Positions 1,045 to 25,061 of a stretch of 35,771 nucleotides of DNA are shown here, in pieces (the stretch's first letter is position 1; every line of letters starts with the position of its first letter). Source of the DNA: a virus (lineage: Duplodnaviria > Heunggongvirae > Uroviricota > Caudoviricetes); IMG/VR virus record IMGVR_UViG_2897328257_000002; one strand, 5' to 3'. A program made the position numbers and the translations under genes. The notes beneath the pieces are model-generated. The model had not been told where the DNA came from. It made no database searches and was given only the letters and a program-made list of their open reading frames with translations.

Positions 1045-1232
1045 AAAAAATGCCCTCCAGTAGAGAGCATTTTCACTGTATGTATAACCAGTGTCAATGT
1101 ATGAAATCCTACGACCATACATCTCACTGAAGCCATAATTAAGTTGGCTATTCTTTTTGCTATGTGAGCATGTAATTTTTGCGGTTAACCTGCGGCTCAT
1201 TTTTATTTTAGGCGCAGATATAAAAGCAAAAG

Positions 1233-1424
1233 TTATCGTGAGTTTTTAGTACAGATTTTTTTGGATTTACTAATAGTTCCATCATTGCAAACAAATTTGC
1301 CATCTGAGGTACAGTGAGAAACACCTCCCTTTTTCCCTGAACAGGGATAATTTCTAGCATAGGTAGTTAGTGGGTTTAATAACAAAGAACATGACAAAAC
1401 CACAAAAAATACCTTACCAAGCAT
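1233..1424 (-). CDS. Small secreted cysteine-rich protein (signal peptide plus ~40 aa Lys/Cys-rich mature peptide), unknown function
   Basis: ATG at 1422..1424 preceded by GGAGG (1431..1435) with 6 nt spacing. N-terminus [23 protein letters not shown] looks like a Sec signal peptide; the mature part has 4 Cys and many Lys. Lies 17 bp downstream of the cI stop on the same strand; locally AT-rich. Confidence 0.5.
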
Positions 1425-1440
1425 AGTTTTCCTCCCGGTA

Positions 1441-2010
1441 CTATTTAACATACTTGACTGTTAAACTTATAATTTTACCAATTATTTCAATGTCTTCTAT
1501 CTTGCATTCGAAGGCTCTGTTTCCACCCTCGACGAAGATTCTTCCACCGGGTAAACGAGTAATGTCACGGATCGTTATTTCGCCATCAATACTTATTACC
1601 CATTTACCATCACGTATATCATCAAATTCCTTATCACAAATAAATTCAGAATTATTATCTGTGATTGCAAAAAGATTCTTGAATGCCGACGGTAGAAATT
1701 CCCTATCGAAAATATAAAAACCGTCTTCACACAAGGCCCCATCAGATAATACATATTTAGCAACTTCCATAGTATTTGTATTTGCTGATGCTTGCTTTGA
1801 ACCATGCCCTGTTGTTAGCCAATTAAGCGAGGTGCCCGTTTCAAGGGCGCACTGGATTACCCAATCTGCTGGAAAAATATCACGCATATAGCGCGTTGCC
1901 ATGGTGCTCTTAGAAACACCTAAATGATCACAGAGAGCCTGACGGGTACCGAACCCATATGCTTCAACTAAACGTTCTATGGCTTTCTTACCGCCGCTAT
2001 TGAAATCCAC
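1441..2010 (-). CDS. cI: CI-type immunity repressor (186-like, HTH N-terminal domain plus C-terminal domain)
   Basis: ORF 1441..2097 has no in-frame ATG near its 5' end. HTH-like segment [23 protein letters not shown]. Probable GTG start at 2008..2010 behind GGAGGA (2013..2018); the start could lie as far upstream as 2097. TAG stop at 1441..1443. Divergent from the apl-like gene. Confidence 0.7.
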
Positions 2011-2155
2011 AAGTCCTCCAAAGAAATCCAAAATTCGTTGACAGATTCCAAAAGCGATCTTAAAGTTGAACCAGAAGTGTTCTTTTGGAGCCTTCACTAC
2101 TAATCACGACAAACAACGGCTCGCCACAAGCCATATCTAGAAGGAATGTTGCCTT
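2011..2155. promoter_or_regulatory. Lysis/lysogeny switch region between divergent cI and apl genes (promoters and operators expected, not resolved)
   Basis: Intergenic segment between the oppositely oriented repressor and Apl/Cox-like genes. Individual promoter or operator sites were not mapped. Confidence 0.4.
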
Positions 2156-2359
2156 ATGACACCTAACATTTCAATTACTCTGAATACACCACATGTCACA
2201 ATCGAACGTTATAGCGAACTGACTGGCCTTTCTATTGATACGATTAACGACATGTTGGCTGATGGCCGACTACCTCGTCATCGTCTTCGTAAAGACAAAA
2301 AACGTGAAAAGGTAATGATTAACCTGGCTGCTCTGACTGTTGATGCTTTGTCTGCTTAA
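2156..2359 (+). CDS. apl: Apl/Cox-like small HTH regulator (excisionase / lytic-switch protein)
   Basis: ATG at 2156; 67 aa with HTH-like segment [24 protein letters not shown]. First gene of the rightward early operon, divergent from cI. Confidence 0.7.
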
Positions 2360-2423
2360 TAGACGTCTATTTTCGCAATAAGACGCTGAGTTCGATTTTG
2401 CGATAAGTTCGGAGTTGAAAACC

Positions 2424-2933
2424 ATGTTTGATTACCAAGTTTCCAAACATCCACATTTTGATGAAGCCTGTCGTGCATTCGCACTGCGCCACAATCTGGT
2501 GCAACTGGCAGAACGTGCAGGCATGAATGTGCAGATTCTGCGGAACAAACTGAACCCAGCTCAACCTCATTTATTAACCGCACCAGAAATTTGGTTGCTT
2601 ACCGATCTGACTGAAGATTCAACGCTGGTAGATGGTTTTCTGGCACAGATTCACTGCCTGCCATGTGTACCGATTAATGAGGTAGCAAAAGAGAAACTGC
2701 CGCATTACGTCATGAGTGCAACTGCAGAGATAGGACGTGTCGCGGCAGGTGCGGTTTCTGGCGATGTAAAAACCAGTGCAGGCCGTCGTGATGCGATCAG
2801 CAGCATTAACTCTGTTACACGACTGATGGCGCTGGCTGCTGTTTCATTGCAGGCCCGTTTACAGGCTAATCCTGCGATGGCGAGTGCAGTTGATACCATG
2901 ACTGGTCTTGGTGCTTCATTCGGTTTGCTGTGA
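2424..2933 (+). CDS. cII: CII-like early regulatory protein (phage 186 CII family)
   Basis: ATG at 2424 with GGAG 9 nt upstream; 169 aa beginning [24 protein letters not shown], recalled as 186 CII-like. Position immediately after apl. Confidence 0.75.
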
Positions 2934-2940
2934 GGTGCTT

Positions 2941-3237
2941 ATGCTTACGAAAGAACCATCATTTGCATCGCTGCTGGTAAAACAAAGTCCGGCAATGCAC
3001 TACGGTCACGGCTGGATCACGGGTGAGGATGGAAAACGCTGGCATCCATGTCATTCACAAGATGAATTGCTGTCTGAATTGACCACGAGGAAACGGAGAA
3101 AGTCCAAATGTATGCGGCAGAAAGTGAAGTGGTTTATCAGTTTCGTTACAGAGGGGAGAGTTATTCAGTACCTGAAGATGATTTGCTCTGTTGCTATCCG
3201 TCATTGTCGGGCGATGGCAGTTACTTTTTCACGTTAA
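2941..3237 (+). CDS. Hypothetical early protein
   Basis: ATG at 2941 just after the cII stop (GAGGTG upstream); 98 aa. The 3' third overlaps the next ORF in another frame and looks non-protein-like, so the true stop is uncertain. Confidence 0.45.
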   Translation: MLTKEPSFASLLVKQSPAMHYGHGWITGEDGKRWHPCHSQDELLSELTTRKRRKSKCMRQKVKWFISFVTEGRVIQYLKMICSVAIRHCRAMAVTFSR

Positions 3238-3354: not shown

Positions 3355-3696
3355 ATGGCAATTAATGGCGCTGCAGCAACTGTTCCATTAAGCCCCGGTG
3401 AACGCCTGAATGGACTTAATCACATTGCGGAGTTAAGGGCGAAAGTTTTTGGCCTGAATATTGAGTCAGAGCTTGAGCGGTTTATTAAAGATATGCGTGA
3501 TCCACGGGATATCAATAATGAACAAAATAAACGGGCACTGGCTGCCATATTCTTTATGGCAAAAATTCCAGCTGAACGTCATAGCATCAGCATTAATGAG
3601 CTGACCACTGACGAAAAGCGGGAGCTGATTAAAGCAATGAATCATTTTCGTGCAGTGGTGAGCTTATTTCCCAGACGGCTAACCATGCCGAATTAA
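3355..3696 (+). CDS. Hypothetical early protein (113 aa)
   Basis: ATG at 3355, G-rich RBS upstream; same strand and spacing as the early operon. Confidence 0.6.
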   Translation: MAINGAAATVPLSPGERLNGLNHIAELRAKVFGLNIESELERFIKDMRDPRDINNEQNKRALAAIFFMAKIPAERHSISINELTTDEKRELIKAMNHFRAVVSLFPRRLTMPN

Positions 3697-3763
3697 CCAA
3701 CTAATGAAATTAATGGCGTAAACCCGCCGGGCATCCCTTTATCTAAATTCAGGAGAATTGATT

Positions 3764-3997
3764 ATGCGTAATATTGAAACCCTCACGACTAAAACCGGAC
3801 CGGATGACGCAGGGCTTAATATTTTACTGACAGAGGCTCGTCTGGAAGAACGCCGGGCAAGGGCAGAAGCAATGGCAGCTCGCCTTGATAGCCTGGCGTG
3901 TCATATCACATCCCGCCAGCTAAACCACGTCGAAGCGGCAGAACTACTGCGTGTAACTGCTGAAGCAATCCAGAACGAAGCGCAGGAGATCCACTAA
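3764..3997 (+). CDS. Hypothetical early protein (77 aa)
   Basis: ATG at 3764 with AGGAG (3751..3755) 8 nt upstream; stop overlaps the start of the next gene. Confidence 0.55.
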   Translation: MRNIETLTTKTGPDDAGLNILLTEARLEERRARAEAMAARLDSLACHITSRQLNHVEAAELLRVTAEAIQNEAQEIH

Positions 3998-4224
3998 TGG
4001 CTGATGCAATGGATCTCGTACAGCAGCGCGTTGAAGAAGAACGCCAGCGCCATATTCGTGCTGCCCGTGCCAAAACACCGGGCGTGTCTCGCGTGCTTTG
4101 TATTGAATGTGAAGCGCCAATTCCGCCAGCACGACGCCGCGCCATTCCGGGAGTGCAGCTTTGCATTACCTGCCAGGAAATCGCAGAGCTGAAAGGCAAA
4201 CATTACAACGGAGGTGCTGTATGA
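3997..4224 (+). CDS. TraR/DksA-family C4 zinc-finger protein
   Basis: 75 aa with CIECEAPIP...(17 aa)...CITCQE, a four-cysteine finger at the C-terminus typical of phage TraR/DksA-like proteins. Stop overlaps the Dam start (ATGA). Confidence 0.75.
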   Translation: MADAMDLVQQRVEEERQRHIRAARAKTPGVSRVLCIECEAPIPPARRRAIPGVQLCITCQEIAELKGKHYNGGAV

Positions 4225-5078
4225 GCACCATCCTGAAATGGGCGGGAAATAAAACCGCCATTATGTCCGAACTGAAAAAACACCTTCCTGCTGGCCCGCG
4301 ACTGGTTGAACCTTTCGCGGGTTCCTGTGCTGTGATGATGGAGACGGATTACCCCAGCTATCTGGTTGCGGATATTAATCCTGATTTAATCAACCTCTAT
4401 AAAAAGGTTGCCGCTGATTGTGAATCGTTTATATCTCGCGCCAGAGTTTTATTTGAGATCGCAAACAGGGAGGTGGCTTATTACAACATAAGGCAGGAGT
4501 TTAATTACTCCACTGAAATTACTGATTTCATGAAAGCGGTATATTTCCTGTATCTCAATCGTCACGGTTACCGTGGTTTATGTCGCTATAACAAGAGCGG
4601 GCATTTCAACATTCCCTACGGTAATTATAAAAATCCGTATTTCCCTGAAAAAGAAATTCGCGCATTTGCAGAAAAGGCCCAGCGAGCAACGTTTATCTGC
4701 GCCAGCTTTGATGAAACGCAGGCGATGTTGAAGGCGGGGGATGTGGTGTATTGCGATCCGCCGTATGACGGTACGTTTTCCGGCTATCACACTGACGGCT
4801 TCACTGAAGATGACCAGTATCACCTGGCATCTGTTCTTGAACATCGGTCATCAGAAGGACATCCGGTCATTGTTTCTAACAGTGACACATCCCTGATCCG
4901 TTCGCTGTATCGCAATTTTACTCACCACTACATCAAGGCAAAACGCAGCATCGGTGTGGCAGCTGGCGAGGGTAAATCAGCAACAGAAATCATTGCTGTT
5001 TCCGGGCCGCGCTGCTGGGTGGGATTTGATTATTCGCGTGGCGTGGATAGTTCTGCCGTGTACGGAGTACGTGCATGA
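4221..5078 (+). CDS. DNA adenine (N6) methyltransferase, Dam/D12 class
   Basis: ATG at 4221 behind GGAGG (4211..4215). N-terminus [35 protein letters not shown] (AdoMet-binding FxGxG-like motif) and catalytic DPPY (CDPPYDG). Stop overlaps the gene A start. Confidence 0.85.
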
Positions 5079-7489
5079 GTCATGCCGATATGAACAACTG
5101 CTGCGGCTTTAACGAAGCTGCCGCATCGTTCTCATGGAACAGCCCGAAAAAGGCCATTAACCCTTATCTGGACCCGGTGGAAGTTGCGCCGGTTTCTACG
5201 CTTTCAAACCTGATCACTCTGTACGCTGCCGATAACGAGCAGGAACAGCTGCGCCGTGAGGCGCTGAGTGATCAGGTCTGGGAGCGTTATTTCTTTAATG
5301 AATCCCGTGATCCTGTCCAGCGCGAAATGGAACAGGATAAGCTCATTAGTCGGGCAAAGCTGGCGCATGAGCAGCAGCGTTTTAATCCGGATATGGTCAT
5401 TCTGGCGGACGTCAACGCCCAGCCTTCCCATATCAGCAAGCCGCTGATGCAACGTATTGAATACTTCAGCAGCCTTGGCAGGCCAAAGGCTTATTCCCGC
5501 TATTTACGTGAGACGATTAAGCCATGTCTGGAACGACTGGAGCATGTACGCGACAGTCAGCTATCTGCATCTTTTCGCTTTATGGCAAGCCATGAAGGGC
5601 TGGACGGCCTGCTGATCCTGCCTGAAATGAGTCAGGATCAGGTGAAACGCCTGTCCACCCTGGTAGCTGCGCATATGAGTATGTGCCTTGATGCCGCTTG
5701 TGGCGATTTGTATGCCACCGATGACGTTAAGCCAGAAGAAATCCGCAATACATGGGAAAGGGTGGCAGCGGAAACCCTGCGTCTGGATGTAATCCCGCCT
5801 GCGTTTGAGCAACTCCGTCGGAAAAGAAACCGCCGTAAACCCGTGCCCTATGAACTCATTCCGGGTTCGCTGGCGCGTATGTTGTGCGCCGACTGGTGGT
5901 ACCGGAAATTATGGAAAATGCGTTGCGAATGGCGGGAAGAGCAGTTGCGTGCTGTCTGCCTTGTCAGCAAAAAAGCATCTCCCTATGTCAGCTATGAAGC
6001 CGTGTTGCATAAACGTGAGCAGCGCCGTAAGTCGCTGGAGTTTTTCCGTTCTCATGAACTGGTGAACGAAGACGGCGACACGCTGGACATGGAGGATGTG
6101 GTAAACGCCAGCAGCAGCAACCCTGCGCATCGCCGCAATGAGATGATGGCCTGTGTTAAAGGTCTGGAGCTTATCGCGGAAATGCGCGGTGACTGCGCCG
6201 TTTTCTACACCATCACCTGTCCGTCACGTTTCCATTCCACGCTAAATAACGGCAGGCCCAACCCGACCTGGACAAATGCGACGGTAAGACAAAGCAGCGA
6301 TTATCTGGTCGGTATGTTTGCTGCATTTCGTAAGGCGATGCACAAAGCCGGGTTGCGCTGGTATGGCGTGCGGGTGGCTGAGCCGCATCACGACGGCACA
6401 GTTCACTGGCACCTGTTGTGTTTCATGCGCAAAAAAGACCGCCGCGCCATTACTGCATTGTTGCGTAAGTTTGCTATCCGTGAAGACCGCGAGGAGCTGG
6501 GCAATAACACGGGGCCGCGCTTTAAGTCTGAGCTGATTAACCCGCGCAAAGGAACGCCGACAAGCTACATAGCGAAATACATCAGTAAGAACATTGACGG
6601 GCGTGGTCTGGCTGGCGAGATCAGCAAGGAAACGGGTAAATCTCTGCGTGATAACGCTGAATACGTGAACGCCTGGGCGTCTTTGCATCGTGTTCAGCAA
6701 TTCCGCTTCTTTGGCATTCCGGGGCGTCAGGCTTACCGTGAACTGCGATTGCTGGCTGGTCAGGCGGCAAGGCAACAGGGGGACAAAAAAGCAGGTGCGC
6801 CGGTACTGGATAACCCGCGCCTTGATGCCATCTTGGCTGCTGCTGATGCTGGTTGTTTTGCCACCTACATCATGAAGCAGGGCGGCGTACTGGTTCCCCG
6901 TAAATATCACCTCATCAGAACCGCTTATGAAATCAACGAAGAGCCGACCGCCTATGGCGATCACGGCATTCGTATTTATGGCATCTGGTCACCCATTGCA
7001 GAGGGCAAGATCTGCACTCATGCAGTGAAGTGGAAAATGGTTCGTAAAGCCGTTGACGTTCAGGAGGCGGCAGCCGACCAGGGCGCTTGCGCCCCTTGGA
7101 CTCGTGGCAATAACTGTCCCCTTGCTGAAAATTTGAACCAACAAGGGAAAGACAAATCAGCTGATGGGGATACCAGAACGGACATTACCCACATGGATGA
7201 CAAGGAGTTGCACGATTACCTGCACAGTATGAACAAAAAAGAGCGCCGGGAACTGGCTGCAAGGTTACGCCTGGTGAAACCGAAACGGCGTAGAGACTAC
7301 AAACAGCGAATTACAGACCATCAACGACAGCAGCTCGTCTATGAACTGAAGTCCAGAGGATTTGATGGCAGCGAGAAAGAGGTCGATTTACTCCTTCGCG
7401 GCGGCAGTATTCCGTCAGGAGCAGGCCTGCGTGTCTTCTATCGGAACCAGCGTTTGCAGGAAGATGATAAGTGGCGGAACCTGTATTAA
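5075..7489 (+). CDS. A: Replication initiation endonuclease (P2 gpA / 186 A family, rolling-circle HUH protein)
   Basis: 804 aa; HUH-like motif [10 protein letters not shown] and tyrosine-containing YIAKYISK segment; position and size match gene A of P2-like phages. Confidence 0.9.
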
Positions 7490-7581
7490 TTACGCGGGTT
7501 AACAATTCGTGCTCTTAATAATACCAGGCATATCAGGCTGATGAACGTAAAAAAACGTTTTACATCAGTAAGATTATTATA

Positions 7582-7601
7582 TACTGTAAATATAAACAGT
7601 G
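7582..7601 (+). promoter_or_regulatory. LexA (SOS) box TACTGTAAATATAAACAGTG
   Basis: CTGT-N8-ACAG palindrome with an AT-rich spacer, close to consensus TACTGTATATATATACAGTA. Lies about 40 bp upstream of the RBS/ATG at 7643, with TTTACA (7559..7564) 17 bp upstream as a possible -35. Confidence 0.7.
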
Positions 7602-7642
7602 GTTATCTATACAGTATTGTTTGCGGTGTCATAGGAGGAAAG

Positions 7643-7831
7643 ATGCAGGACTATTTTTTGGAGTCTTTGAAGCTCCAGCGCATTGATTTTTTTCTTAAGC
7701 TTGTAGCGGCTAGTGAGTGTAGTGATGAAGAGAAGGGGCTGGCCCTGCAGTGGGTTTCTGAATTGACTGATGAACTCATGGCAAAAATCAGAAGCCACGA
7801 ATACAACCGCTCAATGGATGTCATCAGCTGA
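7643..7831 (+). CDS. Small hypothetical protein (62 aa) downstream of the LexA box; possible SOS-induced antirepressor-type factor
   Basis: ATG at 7643 with AGGAGG (7633..7638). First ORF after the SOS box. The antirepressor (Tum-like) function is inferred from position only. Confidence 0.45.
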   Translation: MQDYFLESLKLQRIDFFLKLVAASECSDEEKGLALQWVSELTDELMAKIRSHEYNRSMDVIS

Positions 7832-7841
7832 GGTGACTTTT

Positions 7842-8075
7842 ATGCGCATTGAAATAATGATCGATAAAGAGCAGAAGATTAGCCAGTCTACCCTTGACGC
7901 TCTGGAGTCCGAGCTTTACCGCAACCTGCAACCCATCTATCCCAAGACCGCTATCCGCATCCGTAAAGGGTCGGCAAACGGCGTTGAGCTGAGTGGCTTA
8001 AAGCTTGATGAAGACAAAAAGCGGGTGATGGAAATTATGAAACAGGTTTGGGAAGACGACAGCTGGCTGCACTAA
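7842..8075 (+). CDS. dinI: DinI-family protein (DinI/MsgA-like)
   Basis: 77 aa, MRIEIMIDKEQKISQSTLDALESELYRNL...RVMEIMKQVWEDDSWLH. Aligns along its length with E. coli DinI (MRIEVTIAKT...ALAGELSRR...KQRISEILQETWESADDWF). GAGGTG RBS before the ATG at 7842. Confidence 0.8.
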   Translation: MRIEIMIDKEQKISQSTLDALESELYRNLQPIYPKTAIRIRKGSANGVELSGLKLDEDKKRVMEIMKQVWEDDSWLH

Positions 8076-8193
8076 GGAACGTTCCTGATGTAAGAACTTG
8101 AATCTGACGTCAGCAAGGTTGAACAACGAGAGTAGCGAGGCGTTAGCCATGGGTAAAAAAGACAGTAATCACCAGATTATTTATCGGGGCTAG

Positions 8194-8409
8194 GTGCTGG
8201 AACGTTTAACCCTTGGCGACTGGGTCTTCTTTCAACGCCCAAAGGAGTGTGGCGGAGGTTTTTGGTTGGGCCGCATCTATGAAGACTGCTTCTGGCTTGA
8301 GCTGGAATTTCCCGTTTCGCTATATGACGGCCTGGGGTTTTTGATGGAAGTCACTAGGGTAGAGCAGAGAAGTGATGAGGTTGACGCGAATTATCCCCTG
8401 TTTGATTAA
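8194..8409 (+). CDS. Hypothetical protein (71 aa from GTG); possibly a nonsense-interrupted gene starting at ATG 8149
   Basis: ORF from GTG 8194. An in-frame ATG at 8149 (GAGG upstream) is separated from it only by a TAG at 8191..8193. Confidence 0.3.
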   Translation: MLERLTLGDWVFFQRPKECGGGFWLGRIYEDCFWLELEFPVSLYDGLGFLMEVTRVEQRSDEVDANYPLFD

Positions 8410-8457
8410 AAATGTATTAGCTTATAATGGAATACTATTTTTGCAGGTGGGGGCGCA

Positions 8458-9069
8458 ATGGATTTAGTCTTTAAAGTTCTGGCTTCGTTGGGTGGGGTGT
8501 CTTTTGTTGCATCTGGCATATTTGTTTGGATCGGGAAAGTTTATTTAGAAAGATATAAGTCGCGGCTAAACAAAGATATTGCTGAATTTCAATCACAACT
8601 GAGTGCAACTAATGAAAGAATAAAGGCTAAGTTAGACAATTCTGTTTATGTAACGAAAGCGTATTTTGATAAGGAGTTATCAGCATATAGTCTCATTTGG
8701 AATTCGATGTTTGAAACCAGAGAAAGCGTGCTTAAGCTGAGGCCTGCGCTGGATCATGTTGACCCCAACGAACCATTTGAAGAGAGAAAATTTAGAAGGT
8801 TGAAAGTTTTTTTTGATGCATTTAACACTTTTGTTACAAGTGTTGAATCTAACAAACCGTTCATCTCACCAGAGGTTTATATAATCTTGGACCGTTTCCG
8901 GAAGGAATGCCTTTCAGAGTCAATATCGTTTAAGCATAGCGATCCAGAATTTGACGGGCAAAATTATTGGAAAGAGGCGGAGTTGAACCGTACAACCATC
9001 ACCAAGCTTTTTGATGAGACGTGTGATGCAATTCGAGACAGGATGCACACATTAACTGTGGTTACGTAG
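8458..9069 (+). CDS. Membrane-anchored hypothetical protein (203 aa; one N-terminal TM helix, then a charged, partly coiled-coil domain)
   Basis: ATG at 8458. N-terminus LVFKVLASLGGVSFVASGIFVWIG is hydrophobic; no recognised motif. AT-rich cargo region; followed by a terminator. Confidence 0.6.
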   Translation: MDLVFKVLASLGGVSFVASGIFVWIGKVYLERYKSRLNKDIAEFQSQLSATNERIKAKLDNSVYVTKAYFDKELSAYSLIWNSMFETRESVLKLRPALDHVDPNEPFEERKFRRLKVFFDAFNTFVTSVESNKPFISPEVYIILDRFRKECLSESISFKHSDPEFDGQNYWKEAELNRTTITKLFDETCDAIRDRMHTLTVVT

Positions 9070-9160
9070 GTTTCCAAAAAGTCTCGATGCCCGCTTTGGA
9101 GATTGTGCATGTCTATGCCGCATGAATCCGCATGATCGTTTGAGGATCGTTTTAGCTGAG

Positions 9161-9188
9161 GCCCGCCAGGAGTGGCGGGCTTTTGCTT
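9161..9188 (+). terminator. Rho-independent terminator (GCCCGCC-AGGAGT-GGCGGGC followed by TTTTGCTT)
   Basis: Perfect 7-bp GC stem with 6-nt loop and 3' T-tract, about 90 bp downstream of the 8458..9069 gene. Confidence 0.6.
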
Positions 9189-9229
9189 ATGTCATGCAGG
9201 CGCATGAAAACCGCTACATAAAGCGGGCA

Positions 9230-9248
9230 GGCGTGGCGGGGATACGAT
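9230..9248. other. Probable cos site (cohesive-end sequence GGCGTGGCGGGGATACGAT)
   Basis: Matches the P2/186 cohesive-end 19-mers as recalled (GGCGAGGCGGGGAAAGCAC / GGCGTGGCGGGGAAAGCAT) in the first 13 nt, and is followed by TGCGCGCT as at the recalled P2 left end. Sits in a GC-normal intergenic stretch between A-side cargo and the Q/P packaging genes. Confidence 0.5.
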
Positions 9249-9316
9249 TGCGCGCTAGGTATAAGTGTGTAAAATAATTCCAAAATAAATCATCCTAATG
9301 AAGTGAGAGGGTAATA

Positions 9317-10966
9317 ATGTTAGTCAAGAAAAATAAAAATTATAGTTTATATTTTTTAATTACAAATAATCAACAGATATCTGATTCTGGTAATTATATA
9401 AAAATAGTCCCATCAAGAAGCGATTGGAATGATTTTGGATATTTGAGTAGAGTCGAAATATCTATTTTTAATAAAAAAGAGTGTAAGGATATAATTTCAC
9501 TGAATGGTTATATTGGTTTTTTGAATTCAGAGGAGGAACGAAATGGAAAAGCAGAACTGATAAGGCGAGTGAAGAAAAAGGAAGAATCTAATTTAAAGGA
9601 TGAGGGGTTTAATGATTATTTTGTCATGCTTCAGGATATGAATAATTATCGAAGACTAGTAAGATTTTTTGGGGTGAATGAATCCAAATATATATTAAAT
9701 TTCATTAATGATGTTGTTTCTAAGAAAAGTGACGCTAGTGCAGAGAATTTGAGGAAAAAAGCAATCTCTTCTGATATCTTTAATAAATCTTTCATTAGAG
9801 AGTCTGAGTCGTATTTTACTTTCAAAAATGCAGGAACAGTTCTTTCCGGTATTCAATATGAGGAGTTGGGTAATTTATCACAGCACATCAAGATTAGCTA
9901 TTCGAATAAAGTTAATGAAGAAGATGTATCTTATGTTTTTAATTTTGATCACGAGCATGATTTACCAAAAAGAATTTCCATAATTATAGGCGAGAATGGT
10001 GTAGGAAAAAGCCAAACGCTTAGAGAAATCGCATTGGCTGCGATTAAAGGAAAGGATAATTTGGTGGCTGTAGTTGATTCTAACGGTGTAAGCATTGAAG
10101 AACGAATTCAAATTAGTAGGCTCATTGCTTTTTCTCCAACAAATGAAAGTAAGTGTTCATTTCCAACCGATAAAAGAATAAAATCATTGATATGGTACAA
10201 AAGATTGACTTTAAATCGTGAATCAAAATCCAAATTAAACTTGAATGATTTAATAGTGCAACTAGCGAGGAGTAACGACGCTATCGGCTATAATCAAAGG
10301 TGGAATATATTTGTTGATGCACTGAGTGTTCTAAATAGTAACAACGATTTAGTAATCAAATGTAGCGGTGAAAATTCACCATTTGTTAAATTAAATGAGC
10401 TTAATTCTCGAGGCGAAGAATCCAGACTATCATTATATTCTGAAATTATTCTCTCTGGCGAGCCTTTGAGGCTTGTTGAAAATAAATGTTACCCTTTGAG
10501 TAGTGGGGAAATATCGTTTATTAAGTTTTGTGTACAAGTCTGTTTGTATATTGAGAATGGGACTCTTCTATTAATAGATGAGCCAGAAACACATCTCCAT
10601 CCTTCATTTATTAATAAATTTATGGCATTGCTTGATAATTTATTAGAAAAGACAGGCTCTTCAGCTATCATAGCAACGCATTCGGTTTATCTTGTTCGGG
10701 AGGTTTTTAAGGAGCAAGTGACAATACTCAGAAGACGAGATGATGGGGTAATTGTTAGCGAAAAACCGAGATTGAGTACTTTTGGGGCGAATATAGGAAA
10801 TATCTCATATTTTGTTTTCGGTGAGAGTGAACCAACTCAAATTTTAAATAAAGTAAAAAATAATATAATTGCAAAGAATATGTCTTGGGATGATGTTGAA
10901 TCTAAATATAGCGAGGACTTATCACTTAATGTATTAACTGCGTTGAGAAATGAAATAGGCAATTGA
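9317..10966 (+). CDS. ABC-type (AAA_15/AAA_21-like) ATPase with ~220-aa N-terminal extension; PtuA-like candidate defence ATPase
   Basis: 549 aa. Walker A GENGVGKS (~residue 225), signature-like LSSGE, Walker B/D-loop LLLIDEPETHLHP, H-loop IIATHS. N-terminal ~220 aa has no recognisable motif. Very AT-rich; stop is 1 nt before the next start. Confidence 0.75.
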   Translation: MLVKKNKNYSLYFLITNNQQISDSGNYIKIVPSRSDWNDFGYLSRVEISIFNKKECKDIISLNGYIGFLNSEEERNGKAELIRRVKKKEESNLKDEGFNDYFVMLQDMNNYRRLVRFFGVNESKYILNFINDVVSKKSDASAENLRKKAISSDIFNKSFIRESESYFTFKNAGTVLSGIQYEELGNLSQHIKISYSNKVNEEDVSYVFNFDHEHDLPKRISIIIGENGVGKSQTLREIALAAIKGKDNLVAVVDSNGVSIEERIQISRLIAFSPTNESKCSFPTDKRIKSLIWYKRLTLNRESKSKLNLNDLIVQLARSNDAIGYNQRWNIFVDALSVLNSNNDLVIKCSGENSPFVKLNELNSRGEESRLSLYSEIILSGEPLRLVENKCYPLSSGEISFIKFCVQVCLYIENGTLLLIDEPETHLHPSFINKFMALLDNLLEKTGSSAIIATHSVYLVREVFKEQVTILRRRDDGVIVSEKPRLSTFGANIGNISYFVFGESEPTQILNKVKNNIIAKNMSWDDVESKYSEDLSLNVLTALRNEIGN

Positions 10967-10967
10967 A

Positions 10968-11831
10968 ATGAATAAATTAAAAAGACCTGTTTTTAAAGAT
11001 TATTCTGCATTTAAAAAACTATCTGCAAATAAGAGATTAAAACATCATTCTGTTCTGAATGGACAGGATACATTTATACTTAATGCATATAGATCGTACA
11101 TAAAGAATAAAGGATATCTTAATGTCAATTCTTGTGGCGTATTGAGTAACAATATTGCTGAAGCTTTGAAATATTATTATAACAATCCCGCAAAGTGTTT
11201 ATCTATAATTGATGATATAAGAGCAGCTAATTCTAATTCTCTATGTCCAATGTGTGGTTCAATGCATAGCGGGACTTTGGATCATGTTTTACCCAAGGAA
11301 AACTATCCAGAATTTTCTTTATTCACTAAGAATTTGGTTCCTGCTTGCAAATGTAATACTTTCAAAAGTACTACTATAGCTAATTCTGCAGGCCATCGGA
11401 TGCTGCATCCATATTTTGATAATATATTAAAAAAAAGATTAATATGTGCTAATTTTTCTAAATTAGGGCGAACACCTACAATTGATGTAAAAATCATAAT
11501 TGACCCAATGTCACCAGAATATAACAATGTTAAGTATCATCTTGATAATGTTGTTATCAAGAATAATATTAAGGGGTATTTGTCTGAACAATGGGAGTCG
11601 TTTTACTTATATCCTGAGCTTGTTATTAGAGGACTGAATAAGAGTCTTTCTACTTATAGCGATGTATATGAGTTGTTGACTCGCGAGTTGTTGCTGTTGG
11701 ATGAAAAACATAAAGGTAAAAATAATTGGAATTCGGTTTTTGTAGCTGGGTTAATTCGACCTGATGTGATTAGGTGGATACTCTGTGAATTACATTTAGG
11801 TAACAGAAGTCCAGACGGTCGTCTCATATGA
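10968..11831 (+). CDS. HNH endonuclease-domain protein; PtuB-like candidate defence nuclease
   Basis: 287 aa with CPMCGSMHSGTLDHVLPKENYP...NLVPACKCN...H...LHPYF, an HNH core with cysteine zinc-binding pairs. Translationally coupled to the upstream ATPase. Confidence 0.7.
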   Translation: MNKLKRPVFKDYSAFKKLSANKRLKHHSVLNGQDTFILNAYRSYIKNKGYLNVNSCGVLSNNIAEALKYYYNNPAKCLSIIDDIRAANSNSLCPMCGSMHSGTLDHVLPKENYPEFSLFTKNLVPACKCNTFKSTTIANSAGHRMLHPYFDNILKKRLICANFSKLGRTPTIDVKIIIDPMSPEYNNVKYHLDNVVIKNNIKGYLSEQWESFYLYPELVIRGLNKSLSTYSDVYELLTRELLLLDEKHKGKNNWNSVFVAGLIRPDVIRWILCELHLGNRSPDGRLI

Positions 11832-11841
11832 TTTTTTGCAT

Positions 11842-11867
11842 CTTCAGCGTGTATCTGCACGCTGAAG
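11842..11867. other. Perfect 10-bp inverted repeat (CTTCAGCGTG - TATCTG - CACGCTGAAG) between the HNH gene and the Q stop
   Basis: Seen directly; T-run lies on the 5' side on the plus strand, so not a canonical terminator for either flanking gene. Possible cassette boundary or protein-binding site. Confidence 0.4.
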
Positions 11868-11938
11868 AAATTCATAAAAACTGCTGGCTATTAATAACTT
11901 TTTTTAGTTGTGTTAAAGAACCTCATTTAGTTATTACG

Positions 11939-12970
11939 TTAAGTAGCTAGTTTATAACTATCAAATTTAACAATGTTCTCACTTACCAATTTATTTATTT
12001 CCATCATTCTTTTTTGTAACGGTATTAACTCGTTACGTACAAACACCAGGCTCGCCTTCTCCACATCCCCAAACCCCCCGACATTATTAGGCATAATCCC
12101 CATCATTTGCGGTGGCACACGATGCGCCGCCATCATGTCATCCCGGCTCACGTTCTTGATGTTCAGAAACTCATCCTTCGCCGCGACTTCTGACAACGGG
12201 ATGATCTGAAGCCCGTCCTTTTTGCCGTTAGGCGAGTACATAAACAGATTGCGGAAGTTACCTGGTCCTTTGGCGCTTTTCATCGCATTGCGGAGGTTGT
12301 TCACATCCTCCTGGTTTTGCGCGGCATCGGTCATGTACATGATGAAGCCTGCATGACTGCCGTTAATGTAATACTTTCGGCGGAACAGCGTGGCGGACTC
12401 GTTGAGCAGGGCTGACGGAATGGCAGAAAGGTAACCTGGCAGGCCGTAGATCTCCTGGTTGATGTCCGGTTCCATCAGATGAAAAATGCTGCCTTTCGTG
12501 AACTGATACGGCTGGGTTGTCATACCGTATTGCACAAACCAGTAGGTATCCAGGTCTAACCCGCGTCGGGTGTATTTTGCCAGAGCAGGCTCAAGAGCGA
12601 TGACCTCTCCGAACCGGTTTGTGCGTTTCTCCAGGTAAGCGTTACCAAATACCAGATAATCCTGCACAAAACGTGAAAAAGCCTGCTGGCTGAGCAGCGG
12701 GTGAGGGATGTAGGTACTGGTCAGAATGTTGCACTTTACTGCAATCGGGGAGCTATGATGTACGGCAGCGCGGAAGGTTCGCGCCAGTCCGTCAAAACTC
12801 ACTGGCGGCTCATACCAGCGATCTGTCTGTACGCATTCCACATAGTCCAGTAGTTCACGGCGGTCCAGAACCGGAACGGGATCGCCGAAGCTGAATGCTT
12901 CGGCTGAAGCCTGGTTTTTATGCTGGATCTGTTTCGTCGACGCAGCGCGGTTTTTCTTACTCTTTCCCAT
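11939..12970 (-). CDS. Q: Portal protein (P2 gpQ family)
   Basis: 343 aa from ATG 12968..12970; start overlaps the P stop (TGATG); size and order (Q downstream of P, both leftward) as in P2. Confidence 0.9.
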   Translation of the reverse strand: MGKSKKNRAASTKQIQHKNQASAEAFSFGDPVPVLDRRELLDYVECVQTDRWYEPPVSFDGLARTFRAAVHHSSPIAVKCNILTSTYIPHPLLSQQAFSRFVQDYLVFGNAYLEKRTNRFGEVIALEPALAKYTRRGLDLDTYWFVQYGMTTQPYQFTKGSIFHLMEPDINQEIYGLPGYLSAIPSALLNESATLFRRKYYINGSHAGFIMYMTDAAQNQEDVNNLRNAMKSAKGPGNFRNLFMYSPNGKKDGLQIIPLSEVAAKDEFLNIKNVSRDDMMAAHRVPPQMMGIMPNNVGGFGDVEKASLVFVRNELIPLQKRMMEINKLVSENIVKFDSYKLAT

Positions 12971-14736
12971 CAAAAAATCTCCACAATATTGCTGGTATTG
13001 GCGGATTCGCCCTGCAGCGGTTCGTTAAACAATGCGTGCATCGTTGCCCAGGCCAGATCGGCGTGGCTGGCTTCTTCGCTGCGGCTGGCTTCATAGGTTG
13101 GGCGGTTGCCACTGGCGGTGGTGGCGCGACGGATTGCCATGAATGACTGCGCAATGTCGGTGTGCCCGGCGTCAAACTCCAGACGGCGGTGGCTGATAAT
13201 GTCGTAGGCCTTGAGTACCAGGGCGTTTTTAACGTTGGGGTTGTAGACAAACTCCCGGACGGCAGGAAAGAACGCTTTCACGTTCTCATAAACCCCGTGA
13301 CCAACGCCGGTCGAGTCGATACCGATGTATGTCACGTTGTACTGTTCAGTCAGTTTTTTGATGGCATCAGCCTGGGCGCGAAAGTCCATCCCGCGCCACT
13401 GGTGACGCTCAAGAATGCGGAACTTGCCGCCCGGCACGGCTGGCGGAGCCACCACCACGCATCCGGCACTGTCGCCGTTCTGCGTACCTTTTGCCGGGTC
13501 ATAACCGATCCACACTTCGCGCCAGCCAAACGGGCGCAGGGCCAGTGCATGAAAATCGGTCCAGACTTCCCAGCTGTCCACCATACACGCCTGCAGTTCG
13601 CTGAGCGGGAACACGGACGCGAGATCGTCCACAAACTCGCACATCAGCAGGTTCTGGTATTCGTCCGGGCTGTACTCCATGCGCAACTGGTCAAGGTCGA
13701 ACAGGTTACAGCCGCCGCGCACTGCATCTTCCACGGTGACTATCTGGCGGTACTGCCCGTCTGCGCACAGCAGGCCGGGGGCCAGATTGCTGTGGGACAG
13801 GTCGATGTCCACCTTATCGGCTTTATTGCGCCCACGGTTGAACAGCGCACCGGACCAGAACGGATAAGCACTGTGTGTCAGGCTGGATGGCGTGGAAAAA
13901 TAGGTTTGTCGCCATTTTTTGTGGATAGCCATACCGGAAGCCACTTTGCGCAGCTCCTGGAATTTCGGTATCCAGAAATATTCATCCAGATACAGGTTGC
14001 CGTGGTAACTCTGGGCCGTGCGGGCATTGGTGCCGAGGAAGTAAAGCGTGGCTCCGTTAGGAAGCACCATCGGATCGCCTTTCAGCTCCACCTCGACTTC
14101 TTTGGCGAAGTCTATGATGTACTGCTTAAAGACGTGAGCCTGTGCCTTGCTGGCGGAAAGAAAAATCTGGTTACGTCCGGTAAGCAGAGCGTCAATCAGG
14201 GCTTCACGGGCAAAGTAAAAGGTCGCGCCGATCTGGCGTGACTTCAGCAGGTTGCGGATGCGGTTGGTTTTTCCGGCTTCCCACCAGTGGCGCTGGTAGT
14301 TAAACATGGAGGAATGGAAGATTTCTTCCAGCTTCTCAATCTGCTCATCGGTGAAAACATTCTTTTCCGGCTGACGGCGCGGGCCTTTGTTGCGGTTGGC
14401 GACGTTAGGGTTTAAGTCGGCTTCGTTGCCGCCATTGTTAAACTTGCCGATCCGCGCGTGGCGCTCCGACTGGCGCGCCAGCAGGTCAATTTCTTTGAAA
14501 TCTTTCCCTTCTTTGTGCTCCTTCATAATGAGCTGGCAGTAGCGTGCGGCGGTGGTGAGCTGCATCTGATCCAGCGGCCCATAGTCACCCCACTTGTCGC
14601 GTTTTTTCCAGCTGTGAACGGTTGCAACTTTCTCGCCCAGCATTTCAGCAATGCGGGCGACGCGGTATCCCTGAAAGTACAGCAGCATGGCCTGCCGACG
14701 GGGATAGAGATCTGCGGGTGTCAGTGTGGTGTTCAT
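12970..14736 (-). CDS. P: Terminase large (ATPase) subunit (P2 gpP family)
   Basis: 588 aa, close to P2 gpP size; divergent from the capsid operon, upstream of Q. Confidence 0.9.
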   Translation of the reverse strand: MNTTLTPADLYPRRQAMLLYFQGYRVARIAEMLGEKVATVHSWKKRDKWGDYGPLDQMQLTTAARYCQLIMKEHKEGKDFKEIDLLARQSERHARIGKFNNGGNEADLNPNVANRNKGPRRQPEKNVFTDEQIEKLEEIFHSSMFNYQRHWWEAGKTNRIRNLLKSRQIGATFYFAREALIDALLTGRNQIFLSASKAQAHVFKQYIIDFAKEVEVELKGDPMVLPNGATLYFLGTNARTAQSYHGNLYLDEYFWIPKFQELRKVASGMAIHKKWRQTYFSTPSSLTHSAYPFWSGALFNRGRNKADKVDIDLSHSNLAPGLLCADGQYRQIVTVEDAVRGGCNLFDLDQLRMEYSPDEYQNLLMCEFVDDLASVFPLSELQACMVDSWEVWTDFHALALRPFGWREVWIGYDPAKGTQNGDSAGCVVVAPPAVPGGKFRILERHQWRGMDFRAQADAIKKLTEQYNVTYIGIDSTGVGHGVYENVKAFFPAVREFVYNPNVKNALVLKAYDIISHRRLEFDAGHTDIAQSFMAIRRATTASGNRPTYEASRSEEASHADLAWATMHALFNEPLQGESANTSNIVEIF

Positions 14737-22258: not shown

Positions 22259-23153
22259 CCTTTCGCAGTTGCCTGCGCCGCAGATTGTGGATGTGCCGGA
22301 CTTTGAGACGCTGCTTGCCGAACGCAAGGCCGGATTTGTTGCGCTTCATCCGAAAGATGAGCAGGAAGCAGTGATCCGCACGCTGGAACTGGAATCTGAA
22401 CCCGTCACCAAATTGCTGCAGGAGAACGCTTACCGTGAGTTGCTTCTGCGCCAGCGCATTAACGAAGCCGCGCAGGCTGTGATGGTGGCTTACGCGATGG
22501 GCAGCGATCTTGACCAGCTCGCTGCCAACTACAACGTGAAACGCCTGACGGTGACGCCTGCTGATAATGACGCTGTGCCGCCCGTTGCAGCTGTGATGGA
22601 AAGCGATGAAGCGTTACGCCTGCGTGTGCCTGCAGCCTTTGAAGGGCTTTCAGTTGCGGGGCCAACTGCAGCTTATGAATTTCATGCCCGAAGCGCCGAC
22701 GGTCGGGTGGCGGATGCCAGTGCAACCAGCCCGGCACCTGCAGAGGTGGTGCTGACTGTCCTTAGCCGCGAAGGCGATGGAACTGCAGAAAAAGACCTGC
22801 TGGACGTGGTGGAAAAAGCTCTGAACAGTGAGAACGTCCGCCCGGTGGCTGACCGTCTTACGGTTCGCAGCGCAGAAATCATCCCGTATCGCGTGGAAGC
22901 CACCATTTTTCTCTATCCTGGACCGGAAGCAGAGCCGGTAATGGCAGCGGCAAAAGCCAGCCTGCAGAAGTACATCGCCAGTCAGACGCGTCTTGGTCGG
23001 GATATTCGCCGTAGCGCCATCTTTGCCGCCCTGCATGTTGAGGGTGTGCAGCGTGTGGAGCTGGCTTCTCCTCTGGAGGATGTGGTCCTGAACAAAACAC
23101 AGGCGGCATCATGTACGCAGTGGAGCGTAACCAACGGAGGAACGGATGAATAG
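22245..23153 (+). CDS. J: Baseplate protein J (P2 gpJ family)
   Basis: ATG at 22245 behind AGGAG (22234..22238); 302 aa, identical in length to P2 gpJ. Confidence 0.85.
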   Translation: MAVIDLSQLPAPQIVDVPDFETLLAERKAGFVALHPKDEQEAVIRTLELESEPVTKLLQENAYRELLLRQRINEAAQAVMVAYAMGSDLDQLAANYNVKRLTVTPADNDAVPPVAAVMESDEALRLRVPAAFEGLSVAGPTAAYEFHARSADGRVADASATSPAPAEVVLTVLSREGDGTAEKDLLDVVEKALNSENVRPVADRLTVRSAEIIPYRVEATIFLYPGPEAEPVMAAAKASLQKYIASQTRLGRDIRRSAIFAALHVEGVQRVELASPLEDVVLNKTQAASCTQWSVTNGGTDE

Positions 23154-24804: not shown

Positions 24805-24815
24805 NNNNNNNNNNN
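24805..24815. other. Assembly gap (11 N)
   Basis: Run of N in the sequence; interrupts the tail-fibre region exactly where an invertible segment is expected. Confidence 0.99.
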
Positions 24816-25006: not shown

Positions 25007-25061
25007 TGCAGCGATTACGGCTAACTGGCATCATCCCCGGTTTTTATTCAGGGGGATGATC

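What the first reader, a model, noticed from the sequence alone, without database searches (positions are those of the whole stretch)
7490..11938. Variable cargo island at the A-Q hotspot, with accessory genes on both sides of cos
Between the replication gene A stop (7489) and the portal gene Q stop (11939) lie about 4.4 kb of mostly AT-rich sequence with no structural-gene homologs. It holds an SOS-box module, a possibly nonsense-interrupted ORF, a membrane-anchored orphan protein, a terminator, a probable cos site and the ATPase/HNH operon. In P2 the cos-to-Q distance is about 100 bp as I recall; here roughly 2.7 kb of cargo sits between the putative cos and Q.
Basis: partly seen in the sequence, partly recalled or inferred. 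Interest (0 to 1): 0.6.

Follow-up and report, generated by a model that had tools for sequence, protein, structure and literature searches.

The report
Known P2-phage defence-gene hotspot around cos
This is an ordinary example of the well-described swap-in/swap-out accessory-gene hotspot that P2/186-type prophages carry next to their DNA-packaging site, here holding a Septu-like ATPase plus nuclease pair that probably defends the host cell against other phages.

Summary
The window is a 186-like (Peduoviridae) prophage, and A-to-Q is the defence hotspot already described by Odegrip 2006 and Rousset 2022. Rousset's Table S5A already lists this ATPase/HNH cargo.

The 4.4 kb is not one variable block. 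Counts are out of 5,426 complete E. coli genomes:
- SOS module 7490-8075: conserved backbone, 1,126 genomes.
- Left slot 8076-9104: 52 genomes.
- Terminator plus cos block 9105-9256: conserved, 1,153 genomes.
- Right slot 9257-11938, GC 0.32: 3 genomes.

The two slots assort independently. I saw four left-slot states with the identical HNH protein, and at least eight right-slot cargoes with the identical left slot. The prophage itself is a two-parent mosaic joined at the cos block.

The right-slot cargo matches PADLOC candidate PDC-M01, a divergent Septu-type pair:
- The ATPase is PtuA-like, with intact ABC motifs.

The "orphan" membrane protein belongs to a family of 918 representative clusters. 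Its function is unknown.

Interest is low.

The parts
5075..7489 (+). Replication endonuclease gene A (left conserved flank)
   Evidence: 804-aa ORF. Relatives annotate it as replication endonuclease / Phage_GPA.
7582..7601 (+). LexA (SOS) box overlapping a TATACT -10-like hexamer (7580-7585). A possible -35 TTTACA lies at 7559-7564.
   Evidence: 17 of 20 match to TACTGTATATATATACAGTA. It is the only match in the window, with 0 in 100 shuffles. The layout matches 186 p95, where the LexA site begins at the -10. The hexamers were read by eye; the spacer is 15 nt and the promoter scan did not call them.
7643..7831 (+). orf62, first gene of the SOS operon. Conserved backbone, function unknown; possibly an antirepressor, by position only.
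   Evidence: phrog_698 E 5.9e-38. No similarity to the N-terminal half of 186 Tum. The module 7490-8075 is present in 1,126 of 5,426 E. coli genomes.
7842..8075 (+). DinI-like gene (conserved backbone)
   Evidence: Pfam DinI E 4.9e-23. 41% identical to residues 71-145 of 186 Tum, E 7e-25. phrog_189.
8076..9104 (.). LEFT cargo slot (between dinI and the cos block), GC 0.42
   Evidence: Absent in L001 and L028, and replaced by other genes in L002 and L022. Present in only 52 of 5,426 genomes.
8149..8409 (+). orf86 with an in-frame amber codon at 8191-8193. It is either a pseudogene or a 71-aa remnant restarting at GTG 8194.
   Evidence: Cartapus gp46 is intact, with CAG at that codon. The TAG is shared by every closely related E. 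coli locus examined. The Enterobacter homologue is frameshifted. phrog_2100.
8458..9069 (+). orf203: N-terminal transmembrane helix plus a four-helix bundle, function unknown
9105..9256 (.). Conserved cos block: intrinsic terminator (hairpin 9154-9187) plus the cos core. It separates the two slots and is the junction of the two-parent mosaic.
   Evidence: Present in 1,153 of 5,426 genomes. Hairpin dG -25.1, z -4.4. All homology breakpoints fall at 9104-9107 and 9254-9258.
9230..9248 (.). Predicted 19-nt cohesive-end sequence GGCGTGGCGGGGATACGAT
   Evidence: 15 of 19 identical to 186 cos, with conserved flanks. Lies within the 59 bp annotated as cos in phage Cartapus. The same sequence lies between the two slots in L001, L002, L022, L028 and L034.
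9257..11938 (.). RIGHT cargo slot (cos to Q), GC 0.317
   Evidence: Present in 3 of 5,426 genomes. Replaced in relatives by retron St85, AIPR, ParA+SIR2, a P-loop NTPase, DUF4145, OLD-like ATPases and hypothetical genes.
9317..10966 (+). ABC-type ATPase, PtuA-like (PADLOC PDC-M01A)
   Evidence: PDC-M01A E 2.4e-55. PtuA E 1e-31 over residues 32-535. Pfam AAA_21 and AAA_15. Intact Walker A at 225 (GENGVGKS), signature at 394 (LSSGE), Walker B at 417 (LLLIDE) and H-loop at 453.
10968..11831 (+). HNH nuclease, PtuB-like (PADLOC PDC-M01B)
11841..11868 (.). 12-bp-stem hairpin just after the HNH stop codon, part of the cargo. Not a canonical terminator, because neither strand has a U-tract.
   Evidence: Folding of 11832-11938: dG -26.4 (+) and -26.1 (-), z -3.8 and -4.0.
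11939..12973 (-). Portal gene Q (right conserved flank)
   Evidence: 344-aa ORF. Relatives annotate it as phage portal protein.

Best explanation
The interval is the cos-proximal accessory-gene hotspot of a 186/P2-family prophage. It is built as conserved backbone interrupted by two exchangeable cargo slots.

Backbone:
- A LexA-repressed promoter drives orf62 and a DinI-like gene. This is the counterpart of the 186 p95-tum SOS operon.
- A 152-bp block holds that operon's terminator and cos.

Left slot (8076-9104):
- It lies inside the SOS operon, upstream of its terminator. Its genes are therefore probably expressed on DNA damage or prophage induction. This step is inferred.
- It carries a decaying small ORF and a membrane-anchored four-helix-bundle protein.

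Right slot (9257-11938):
- It begins 8-10 bp after the cohesive-end sequence and runs to the Q stop codon.
- It carries a two-gene, AT-rich, horizontally acquired cassette: an ABC ATPase plus an HNH nuclease of the Septu (PtuA/PtuB) type, PADLOC candidate PDC-M01.
- By analogy with Septu, the ATPase oligomer would hold and regulate the nuclease. On infection by another phage the nuclease would be released to cut nucleic acid (tRNA-Tyr or DNA in characterised Septu and retron-Septu systems). That would abort the infection and protect the lysogen population. The homology is shown; the activity, trigger and target are inferred.

Why the slots reassort:
- Cargo turns over by recombination in the conserved blocks (dinI, cos block, Q).
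- The two slots lie at opposite ends of the packaged cos-to-cos chromosome. One crossover anywhere plus terminase cutting at cos is enough to re-pair them.
- The re-pairing pattern is shown by the independent assortment and the mosaic. The mechanism is inferred.
For: Hotspot identity:
- A and Q flank the region.
- The flanks occur in 1,322 genomes but the cargo in only 3 and 52.
- The backbone modules occur in 1,126 and 1,153 genomes.
- The hotspot is published, and this cargo is listed in Rousset Table S5A.

Slot boundaries are reproducible: 8071-8147, 9104-9107, 9254-9258 and 11946-12009.

Independent assortment:
- The identical HNH protein occurs with four different left-slot states.
- The identical left slot occurs with at least eight right-slot cargoes.

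cos:
- Sequence matches.
- The isolated phage Cartapus has the same cos core. Its homology to the window ends at 9256, after which it carries a different gene (DUF4145). A cargo junction there is therefore compatible with packaging.

SOS operon: LexA box, DinI-like gene 41% identical to the C-terminal half of Tum, terminator aligned with 186 t95b, and no significant hairpin between dinI and orf86.

Septu-like cassette:
- PADLOC, Pfam and sequence motifs.
- PtuB fold.
- The ATPase+HNH pairing is conserved in Stenotrophomonas (in a defence island next to AbiJ and Peptidase_U49 genes), in Providencia, and in a P2-like prophage of Scandinavium.
- Septu mechanism is taken from PMC12819146, PMC12673091 and PMC13096335.

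No transposon-like repeats flank either slot.
Against: - No experiment shows that PDC-M01 is anti-phage. It is a PADLOC candidate only, and the two papers that mention it merely list it.
- The NCBIfam PtuA equivalog score is far below its cut-off (40.9 against 500 bits).
- No consensus promoter was found for the ATPase operon or inside the left slot. The promoter scan was at chance level (14 found, 15.9 expected).
- SOS control of the left slot is inferred from the absence of a terminator, not shown.
- orf86 is disrupted, and orf203 has no functional clue beyond its fold.
- The crossover-plus-cos explanation of the mosaic is one of several possible recombination histories.
Confidence: 0.85

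Rival explanations
1. The HNH protein is a packaging accessory. Some cos phages (HK97-type) need an HNH endonuclease encoded next to the terminase and portal genes to cut cos. An HNH gene between cos and the portal gene could be that factor, with the ATPase as its partner.
For: The position is suggestive: directly between cos (9230-9248) and the portal and terminase genes. The requirement for HNH in HK97-type phages is from my own knowledge, not tested here.
Against: Only 3 of 1,322 E. coli genomes with this prophage type carry it. P2, 186 and the isolated phage Cartapus lack it. The protein has the PtuB fold and is always paired with a PtuA-like ABC ATPase, including in non-phage chromosomal sites in Stenotrophomonas and Providencia.
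Confidence: 0.03
2. The AT-rich segment is an independent mobile element (IS, transposon, integron-like cassette or homing element) that inserted itself next to cos by its own recombinase or nuclease.
For: There is a sharp GC drop to 0.32 with clean boundaries. An HNH nuclease could in principle be a homing enzyme.
Against: There is no transposase or integrase, and no terminal inverted or direct repeats above chance-length matches. Many unrelated cargoes share exactly the same junctions. The cargo is inherited together with about 15 kb of the adjoining late region at 99.8-100% identity, which fits homologous exchange in conserved flanks rather than site-specific insertion.
Confidence: 0.05
3. 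The ATPase/HNH pair is mainly an addiction or toxin-antitoxin-like module that stabilises the prophage, or a weapon used during the phage's own lytic growth against the host or co-resident elements. On this reading it is not a defence of the lysogen.
For: AAA_21 ATPases are also annotated as AbiEii/type IV TA components. Characterised PtuAB is toxic when released (PMC12819146). L027 shows a degraded prophage that still retains the cassette. In Enterobacter asburiae a 70%-identical pair sits beside ybjL without phage genes or cos.
Against: Abortive-infection defence and toxicity are not mutually exclusive. The closest characterised relatives (Septu, retron-Eco7) are anti-phage systems. The slot is otherwise filled with recognised defence systems such as retrons, AIPR, SIR2 and OLD-like ATPases.
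Confidence: 0.1

Closest known systems
P2-family gpA-gpQ (cos-proximal) defence hotspot: the 'TO region' of P2 with tin and old. References: Odegrip 2006; Rousset et al. 2022 (PMC9122126); Moura de Sousa et al. 2026 (PMC13586616).
   Same: Same location between the replication gene A and the portal gene Q, next to cos. Same behaviour: unrelated cargoes in otherwise near-identical prophages. Same kinds of cargo. The very proteins found here are in Rousset's Table S5A.
   Different: P2 itself has all its cargo (orf91, tin, old) left of cos, on the minus strand, and only 167 bp between cos and Q. Here most cargo is right of cos. In the passages I read, the papers treat A-Q as a single hotspot. 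The data here resolve it into two independently assorting slots separated by a conserved 152-bp terminator plus cos block.
Coliphage 186 SOS operon (p95 - tum - t95a - orf97 - t95b - cos)
   Same: LexA box overlapping the -10. A DinI-like coding region, 41% identical to Tum residues 71-145. An accessory gene between it and a terminator that lies just before cos. A 19-nt cos sequence 15 of 19 identical.
   Different: Tum is a single 146-aa protein. Here the DinI-like part is a separate 77-aa gene preceded by orf62, which shows no similarity to the Tum N-terminal half. orf203 is unrelated to Orf97. No t95a-like hairpin is detectable after dinI. 186 has nothing between cos and its portal gene.
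Septu defence system (PtuA ABC ATPase + PtuB HNH nuclease; PDB 8EE4/8EE7) and its retron-associated form (Retron-Eco7/Ec78)
   Different: The best PADLOC assignment is the separate, untested candidate family PDC-M01, not Ptu. Identity to PtuB is only 13%, with no sequence-level PDB hit. The protein is about 55-75 residues longer than the PtuB chains it matched (287 aa against 210-234 aa). It is far below the NCBIfam PtuA cut-off. No retron RT or ncRNA is present.
Escherichia phage Cartapus (Elveevirus, Peduoviridae)
   Same: Closest isolated phage. It is 97.6% identical over A - orf62 - dinI - orf86 - orf203 - cos. It has the same left-slot cargo and the same cos core.
   Different: Its orf86 is intact (CAG rather than TAG). 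Its right slot holds a DUF4145 gene instead of ATPase/HNH.

Membership tests
P2-family gpA-gpQ cos-proximal hotspot | Lies between homologues of replication gene A and portal gene Q | tested here: met
   ORFs 5075-7489 and 11939-12973. Relatives annotate them as replication endonuclease and portal protein.
P2-family gpA-gpQ cos-proximal hotspot | Contains or adjoins the cos site | tested here: met
   9230-9248 is 15 of 19 identical to 186 cos with conserved flanks, and coincides with the cos annotated in Cartapus. Actual cleavage was not tested.
P2-family gpA-gpQ cos-proximal hotspot | Gene content differs between otherwise closely related prophages | tested here: met
   Flanks in 1,322 genomes; right cargo in 3; left cargo in 52. 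At least eight alternative right cargoes and four left-slot states.
P2-family gpA-gpQ cos-proximal hotspot | Cargo includes anti-phage-type genes | tested here: inconclusive
   The ATPase and HNH hit PADLOC PDC-M01A/B and PtuA. PDC-M01 is an untested candidate. The left-slot genes have no defence hit.
Septu (PtuAB) | PtuA: ABC-type ATPase with Walker A, signature, Walker B and H-loop motifs | tested here: met
   PADLOC PtuA E 1e-31, residues 32-535 against profile positions 22-500 of 520. Motifs at 225, 394, 417 and 453. The PDB PtuA 8ee4 match is weak (E 0.0017). The NCBIfam PtuA (retron Ec78 equivalog) score is 40.9 bits against a cut-off of 500, so it is not that equivalog.
Septu (PtuAB) | PtuB: HNH (beta-beta-alpha-metal) nuclease with a helical C-terminal domain | tested here: met
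   [not shown]
Septu (PtuAB) | Two genes adjacent and co-oriented, ATPase first | tested here: met
   ATPase stop at 10966 and HNH start at 10968. The same pairing occurs in Stenotrophomonas, Providencia, Scandinavium and Enterobacter.
Septu (PtuAB) | Best match to the family's own models rather than another family | tested here: not met
   The top PADLOC models are PDC-M01A (2.4e-55) and PDC-M01B (1.3e-33). PtuA ranks sixth. No PtuB model appears in the 25 best of 44 hits for the HNH protein. I therefore file it as Septu-like (PDC-M01), not as Septu proper.
Septu (PtuAB) | Confers phage resistance; nuclease activity regulated by the ATPase | not testable with these tools
   Needs cloning and phage challenge.
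186-type SOS (tum) operon | LexA operator overlapping the promoter | tested here: met
   7582-7601, 17 of 20 to consensus, 0 expected by chance. It overlaps TATACT at 7580-7585. Compare 186 p95. LexA binding was not tested.
186-type SOS (tum) operon | Tum antirepressor homologue | tested here: inconclusive
   The DinI-like half is present (41% identity, E 7e-25). orf62 shows no similarity to the Tum N-terminal half.

The most novel reading that the evidence does not exclude
The cos-proximal 'hotspot' may really be two slots placed at the two physical ends of the packaged chromosome. On this reading the placement is itself the mechanism of rapid defence reshuffling: any single crossover between co-resident relatives, followed by terminase cutting at cos, would create a new pairing of left-end and right-end cargo. 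In addition, the untested PDC-M01 pair and the SOS-linked orf203 family (918 clusters, no annotation) might be functional anti-phage or exclusion modules with triggers different from canonical Septu.
Probability: 0.3. Interest if true: 0.4.

Novelty: already known. Interest (0 to 1): 0.2.

Why it matters
As an annotation, this tells a curator three things. The AT-rich 2.7 kb next to the portal gene is lysogenic-conversion cargo, not phage machinery and not an assembly artefact. The lysogen probably carries a Septu-like abortive-infection system. And the PGAP label 'valyl-tRNA synthetase' on orf203 is spurious.

Scientifically it adds little to Rousset 2022 and Moura de Sousa 2026. Three modest points may be useful:
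- The hotspot resolves into two independently assorting slots around a conserved 152-bp terminator plus cos block.
- There is a clean two-parent mosaic joined at that block.
- There are two untested candidates (PDC-M01 and the orf203 family) that could be cloned and challenged with phages.

Tried and rejected
- orf62 against 186 Tum gave no alignment. orf203 against 186 Orf97 gave no similarity (E 29). The left-slot genes are therefore not homologues of the 186 genes in the same position.
- The alternative left-slot proteins from L022 and L002, and 186 Orf97, also have no Pfam hit. Their only PADLOC hit is a weak RTasHEPN match for one of them.
- The promoter and terminator consensus scans were at chance level (14 found against 15.9 expected; 4 against 3.0). 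They missed the strong 9154-9187 hairpin, so they were not used as evidence.
- I looked by eye for an ATPase promoter in 9249-9316 and found nothing convincing.
- The repeat search found no terminal repeats around either slot.
- Rfam found no RNA family in the region. The only hit in the window is RybB at 32994-33072. No tRNA genes were found.
- My first two Tum comparisons failed on wrong coordinates, and one script failed on a file name.
- I considered and rejected HNH-as-terminase-cofactor and transposon-insertion readings (see rivals).

Full report
**1. What the window is**

The window is a P2/186-family (Peduoviridae) prophage inserted between rcdA and ybjL. The integrase and CI genes lie at the left, followed by the early operon with a Dam methylase and replication gene A (5075-7489). 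The portal gene Q (11939-12973, minus strand), the terminase gene and the late genes run to ogr. A public E. coli chromosome, CP023200.1, is 100% identical over the 10 kb compared and is probably the source. The closest isolated phage is Escherichia phage Cartapus (Elveevirus), 97.6% identical from A up to cos.

**2. Check of the observation**

Every item in the finding is real.

| Feature | Coordinates | Evidence |
|---|---|---|
| Interval | 7490-11938 (4,449 bp) | GC 0.365 against 0.525 for the rest of the window; deepest trough in the window (0.28-0.34) at 9200-12000 |
| LexA box | 7582-7601 | TACTGTAAATATAAACAGTG, 17 of 20 to consensus, unique in the window, 0 in 100 shuffles; overlaps a TATACT hexamer as at 186 p95 |
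| orf62 | 7643-7831 | phrog_698 |
| DinI-like gene | 7842-8075 | Pfam DinI E 4.9e-23; 41% identical to the C-terminal half of 186 Tum |
| orf86 | 8149-8409 | in-frame TAG at 8191-8193 where Cartapus has CAG |
| orf203 | 8458-9069 | transmembrane helix plus four-helix bundle, pLDDT 91 |
| Terminator hairpin | 9154-9187 | dG -25.1 kcal/mol, z -4.4, followed by a T-rich stretch; aligns with 186 terminator t95b |
| cos | 9230-9248 | GGCGTGGCGGGGATACGAT, 15 of 19 identical to the 186 cohesive end with conserved flanks; inside the 59 bp annotated as cos in Cartapus |
| ATPase, HNH | 9317-10966, 10968-11831 | |

From cos to the Q stop codon is 2,690 bp. The same distance is 167 bp in P2 and 176 bp in 186.

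**3. The 4.4 kb is four pieces, not one island**

Searching each piece against 5,426 complete E. coli genomes gave these counts:

| Piece | Coordinates | Genomes with a match |
|---|---|---|
| A/Q flanks (query 7000-12400) | - | 1,322 |
| SOS module | 7490-8075 | 1,126 |
| Left slot | 8084-9104 | 52 |
| Terminator plus cos block | 9105-9256 | 1,153 |
| Right slot | 9259-11938 | 3 |

The SOS module and the cos block are therefore backbone of this 186-like lineage. Two slots carry the cargo.

The homology breakpoints are reproducible:
- Relatives with a different right cargo match up to 9254-9258 and resume at 11946-12009.
- Relatives with a different or empty left slot stop at 8071-8147 and resume at 9104-9107.

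The right slot therefore begins only 8-10 bp beyond the cohesive-end sequence. Homology to Cartapus, an isolated phage, ends at 9256 as well, and Cartapus then carries a different gene. Cargo inserted at that point is therefore compatible with packaging.

**4. The slots assort independently**

The identical HNH protein occurs with four left-slot states:
- a 225-aa unknown protein;
- orf86 plus orf203, as in the window;
- an empty slot;
- a 288-aa gene plus a 217-aa gene.

The identical left slot (99.4-99.6% identity from A to cos) occurs with many right cargoes. These include retron St85, AIPR, ParA+SIR2, a P-loop NTPase, DUF4145, a 2-kb AAA ATPase and a 290-aa hypothetical protein. In Enterobacter, orf203 is followed by AIPR, a retron, an OLD-like ATPase or an unknown gene.

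**5. The prophage is a two-parent mosaic joined at the cos block**

A 1-kb sliding identity comparison shows:
- Window 3355-9255 is 99.0-99.7% identical to the prophage of strain H1. The late region is only 90-97% identical to it, apart from one 99.5% kilobase at 23001-24000.
- The integrase/CI end (50-3110) is about 80-93% identical to both, so it comes from a third source.

In the packaged, cos-to-cos map these two blocks are the two arms of the chromosome. A single crossover near the att/immunity region plus terminase cutting at cos is enough to produce this pattern. That would also explain why the two slots, adjacent in the prophage, behave as unlinked. This last step is inference. No transposase, integrase or terminal repeats flank either slot.

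**6. The right-slot cargo**

*ATPase.*
- The best matches are PADLOC candidate PDC-M01A (E 2.4e-55) and then PtuA over its full length (E 1e-31).
- It also matches Pfam AAA_21 and AAA_15.
- The ABC motifs are intact: Walker A GENGVGKS at 225, signature LSSGE at 394, Walker B LLLIDE at 417 and H-loop ATH at 453.

*HNH protein.*
- It matches PDC-M01B (E 1.3e-33).
- It has no Pfam or NCBIfam hit and no sequence-level PDB hit.
- The zinc-binding cysteines and the catalytic D105-H106, N122 and N130 are invariant in the family.

*Distribution of the pair.*
- Stenotrophomonas: in an island next to AbiJ and Peptidase_U49 genes.
- Providencia: at a non-phage chromosomal site.
- Scandinavium: in the same cos-Q slot of a P2-like prophage.
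- Enterobacter asburiae: beside ybjL, with no phage genes or cos nearby.

*Interpretation.* It is a mobile two-gene cassette of the Septu type. I file it as Septu-like (PDC-M01) rather than Septu proper, for two reasons. The family's own models are not the best match. The NCBIfam PtuA equivalog is far below its cut-off (40.9 against 500 bits).

In characterised Septu and retron-Septu systems, the PtuA oligomer holds PtuB. The released complex nicks DNA and/or causes loss of tRNA-Tyr, aborting infection (PMC12819146, PMC12673091, PMC13096335). The same mode of action here is inferred by homology only. PDC-M01 has no experimental support that I could find.

**7. The left-slot cargo**

orf86 (phrog_2100) is intact in Cartapus. 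It carries the same amber codon in every closely related E. coli locus examined, and it is frameshifted in the Enterobacter loci. It is either decaying or expressed only as the 71-aa GTG-restart product.

orf203 is not an orphan. A profile search found 918 representative clusters (388 at E <= 1e-10), nearly all about 190-220 aa and matching end to end. No member hits a Pfam or PADLOC family. The fold is a generic four-helix bundle. The positive charges just after the transmembrane helix (K27, R32, K34, R36, K39) suggest that the bundle faces the cytoplasm; this is my inference from the positive-inside rule.

Both genes lie between dinI and the operon terminator. There is no significant intervening hairpin (z -0.9) and no promoter was called. 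They are therefore probably read through from the LexA-controlled promoter. In 186 the same position holds orf97, whose annotation says that expression from a plasmid blocks 186 infection. orf203 is unrelated to orf97 in sequence.

**8. Comparison with what is known**

The gpA-gpQ, cos-adjacent region of P2-like phages is an established diversity and defence hotspot:
- P2 carries tin and old there.
- Rousset et al. found 1,650 gene arrangements in 18,150 E. coli loci.
- Moura de Sousa et al. 2026 describe rapid swapping of these loci.
[quoted passage not shown] These are the ATPase and HNH proteins annotated at this position in the three E. coli genomes whose cos-to-Q cargo is 99.6-99.9% identical to the window's.
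- All six proteins fall into existing PHROG families.

**9. Verdict**

The small additions are:
- the two-slot anatomy around a conserved 152-bp terminator plus cos block;
- the independent assortment of the slots and the cos-joined mosaic;
- the structural link from PDC-M01B to PtuB;
- the finding that orf203 belongs to a sizeable unannotated family.

Interest is 0.2.

Noticed in passing
[not shown]
   Followed up: partly
[not shown]
   Followed up: no
window 24211-25645: The C-terminal end of the tail-fibre gene and the tail-fibre assembly region differ from both close relatives. Strain H1 has an invertase plus inverted fibre segments there. This is probably a host-range cassette.
   Followed up: no
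window 32994-33072 (minus strand): RybB sRNA (Rfam 105 bits, E 7e-21) lies just outside the ogr end of the prophage, next to ybjL. The prophage sits between rcdA and ybjL. The exact att sites were not mapped.
   Followed up: no
window 4161-5078 and the junction with gene A: A Dam-type adenine methylase lies directly upstream of A. Relatives carry an extra 273-aa gene or a PAPS-reductase-like gene between the methylase and A, which marks another variable position.
   Followed up: no
window 8149-8409; L018-L021 5698-5950: orf86 is disrupted independently in two lineages: an amber codon in E. coli and a frameshift in Enterobacter. It is intact only in phage Cartapus. It is a small example of apparent pseudogenisation inside a hotspot that is reported to turn over 'without pseudogenization'.
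   Followed up: partly
L027 7003-10712: This is a degraded copy of the same prophage. The terminase gene is truncated, and everything up to ogr is deleted, but A, the left slot, cos, ATPase/HNH and Q are retained.
   Followed up: no
L032 3355-5864: In Enterobacter asburiae a 70%-identical ATPase+HNH pair sits beside ybjL. That is the gene flanking the ogr end of this prophage in E. coli. Here it lies among DUF3800, GIY-YIG and arsenic-resistance genes, with no P2 genes or cos within 5 kb. It may be a remnant or a separate island.
   Followed up: no
window 8458-9069: RefSeq/PGAP labels this protein 'valyl-tRNA synthetase' in several genomes. That name rests on a sub-threshold coiled-coil match to Val_tRNA-synt_C (16.7 bits against a cut-off of 25.9, E 0.0089) and is spurious.
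   Followed up: yes
window 9105-9229: The conserved stretch left of the cohesive-end sequence contains several GCATG motifs (GTGCATG, CCGCATG, CCGCATG, TCATGCAGGCGCATG). These could be terminase recognition elements. I read them by eye only.
   Followed up: no
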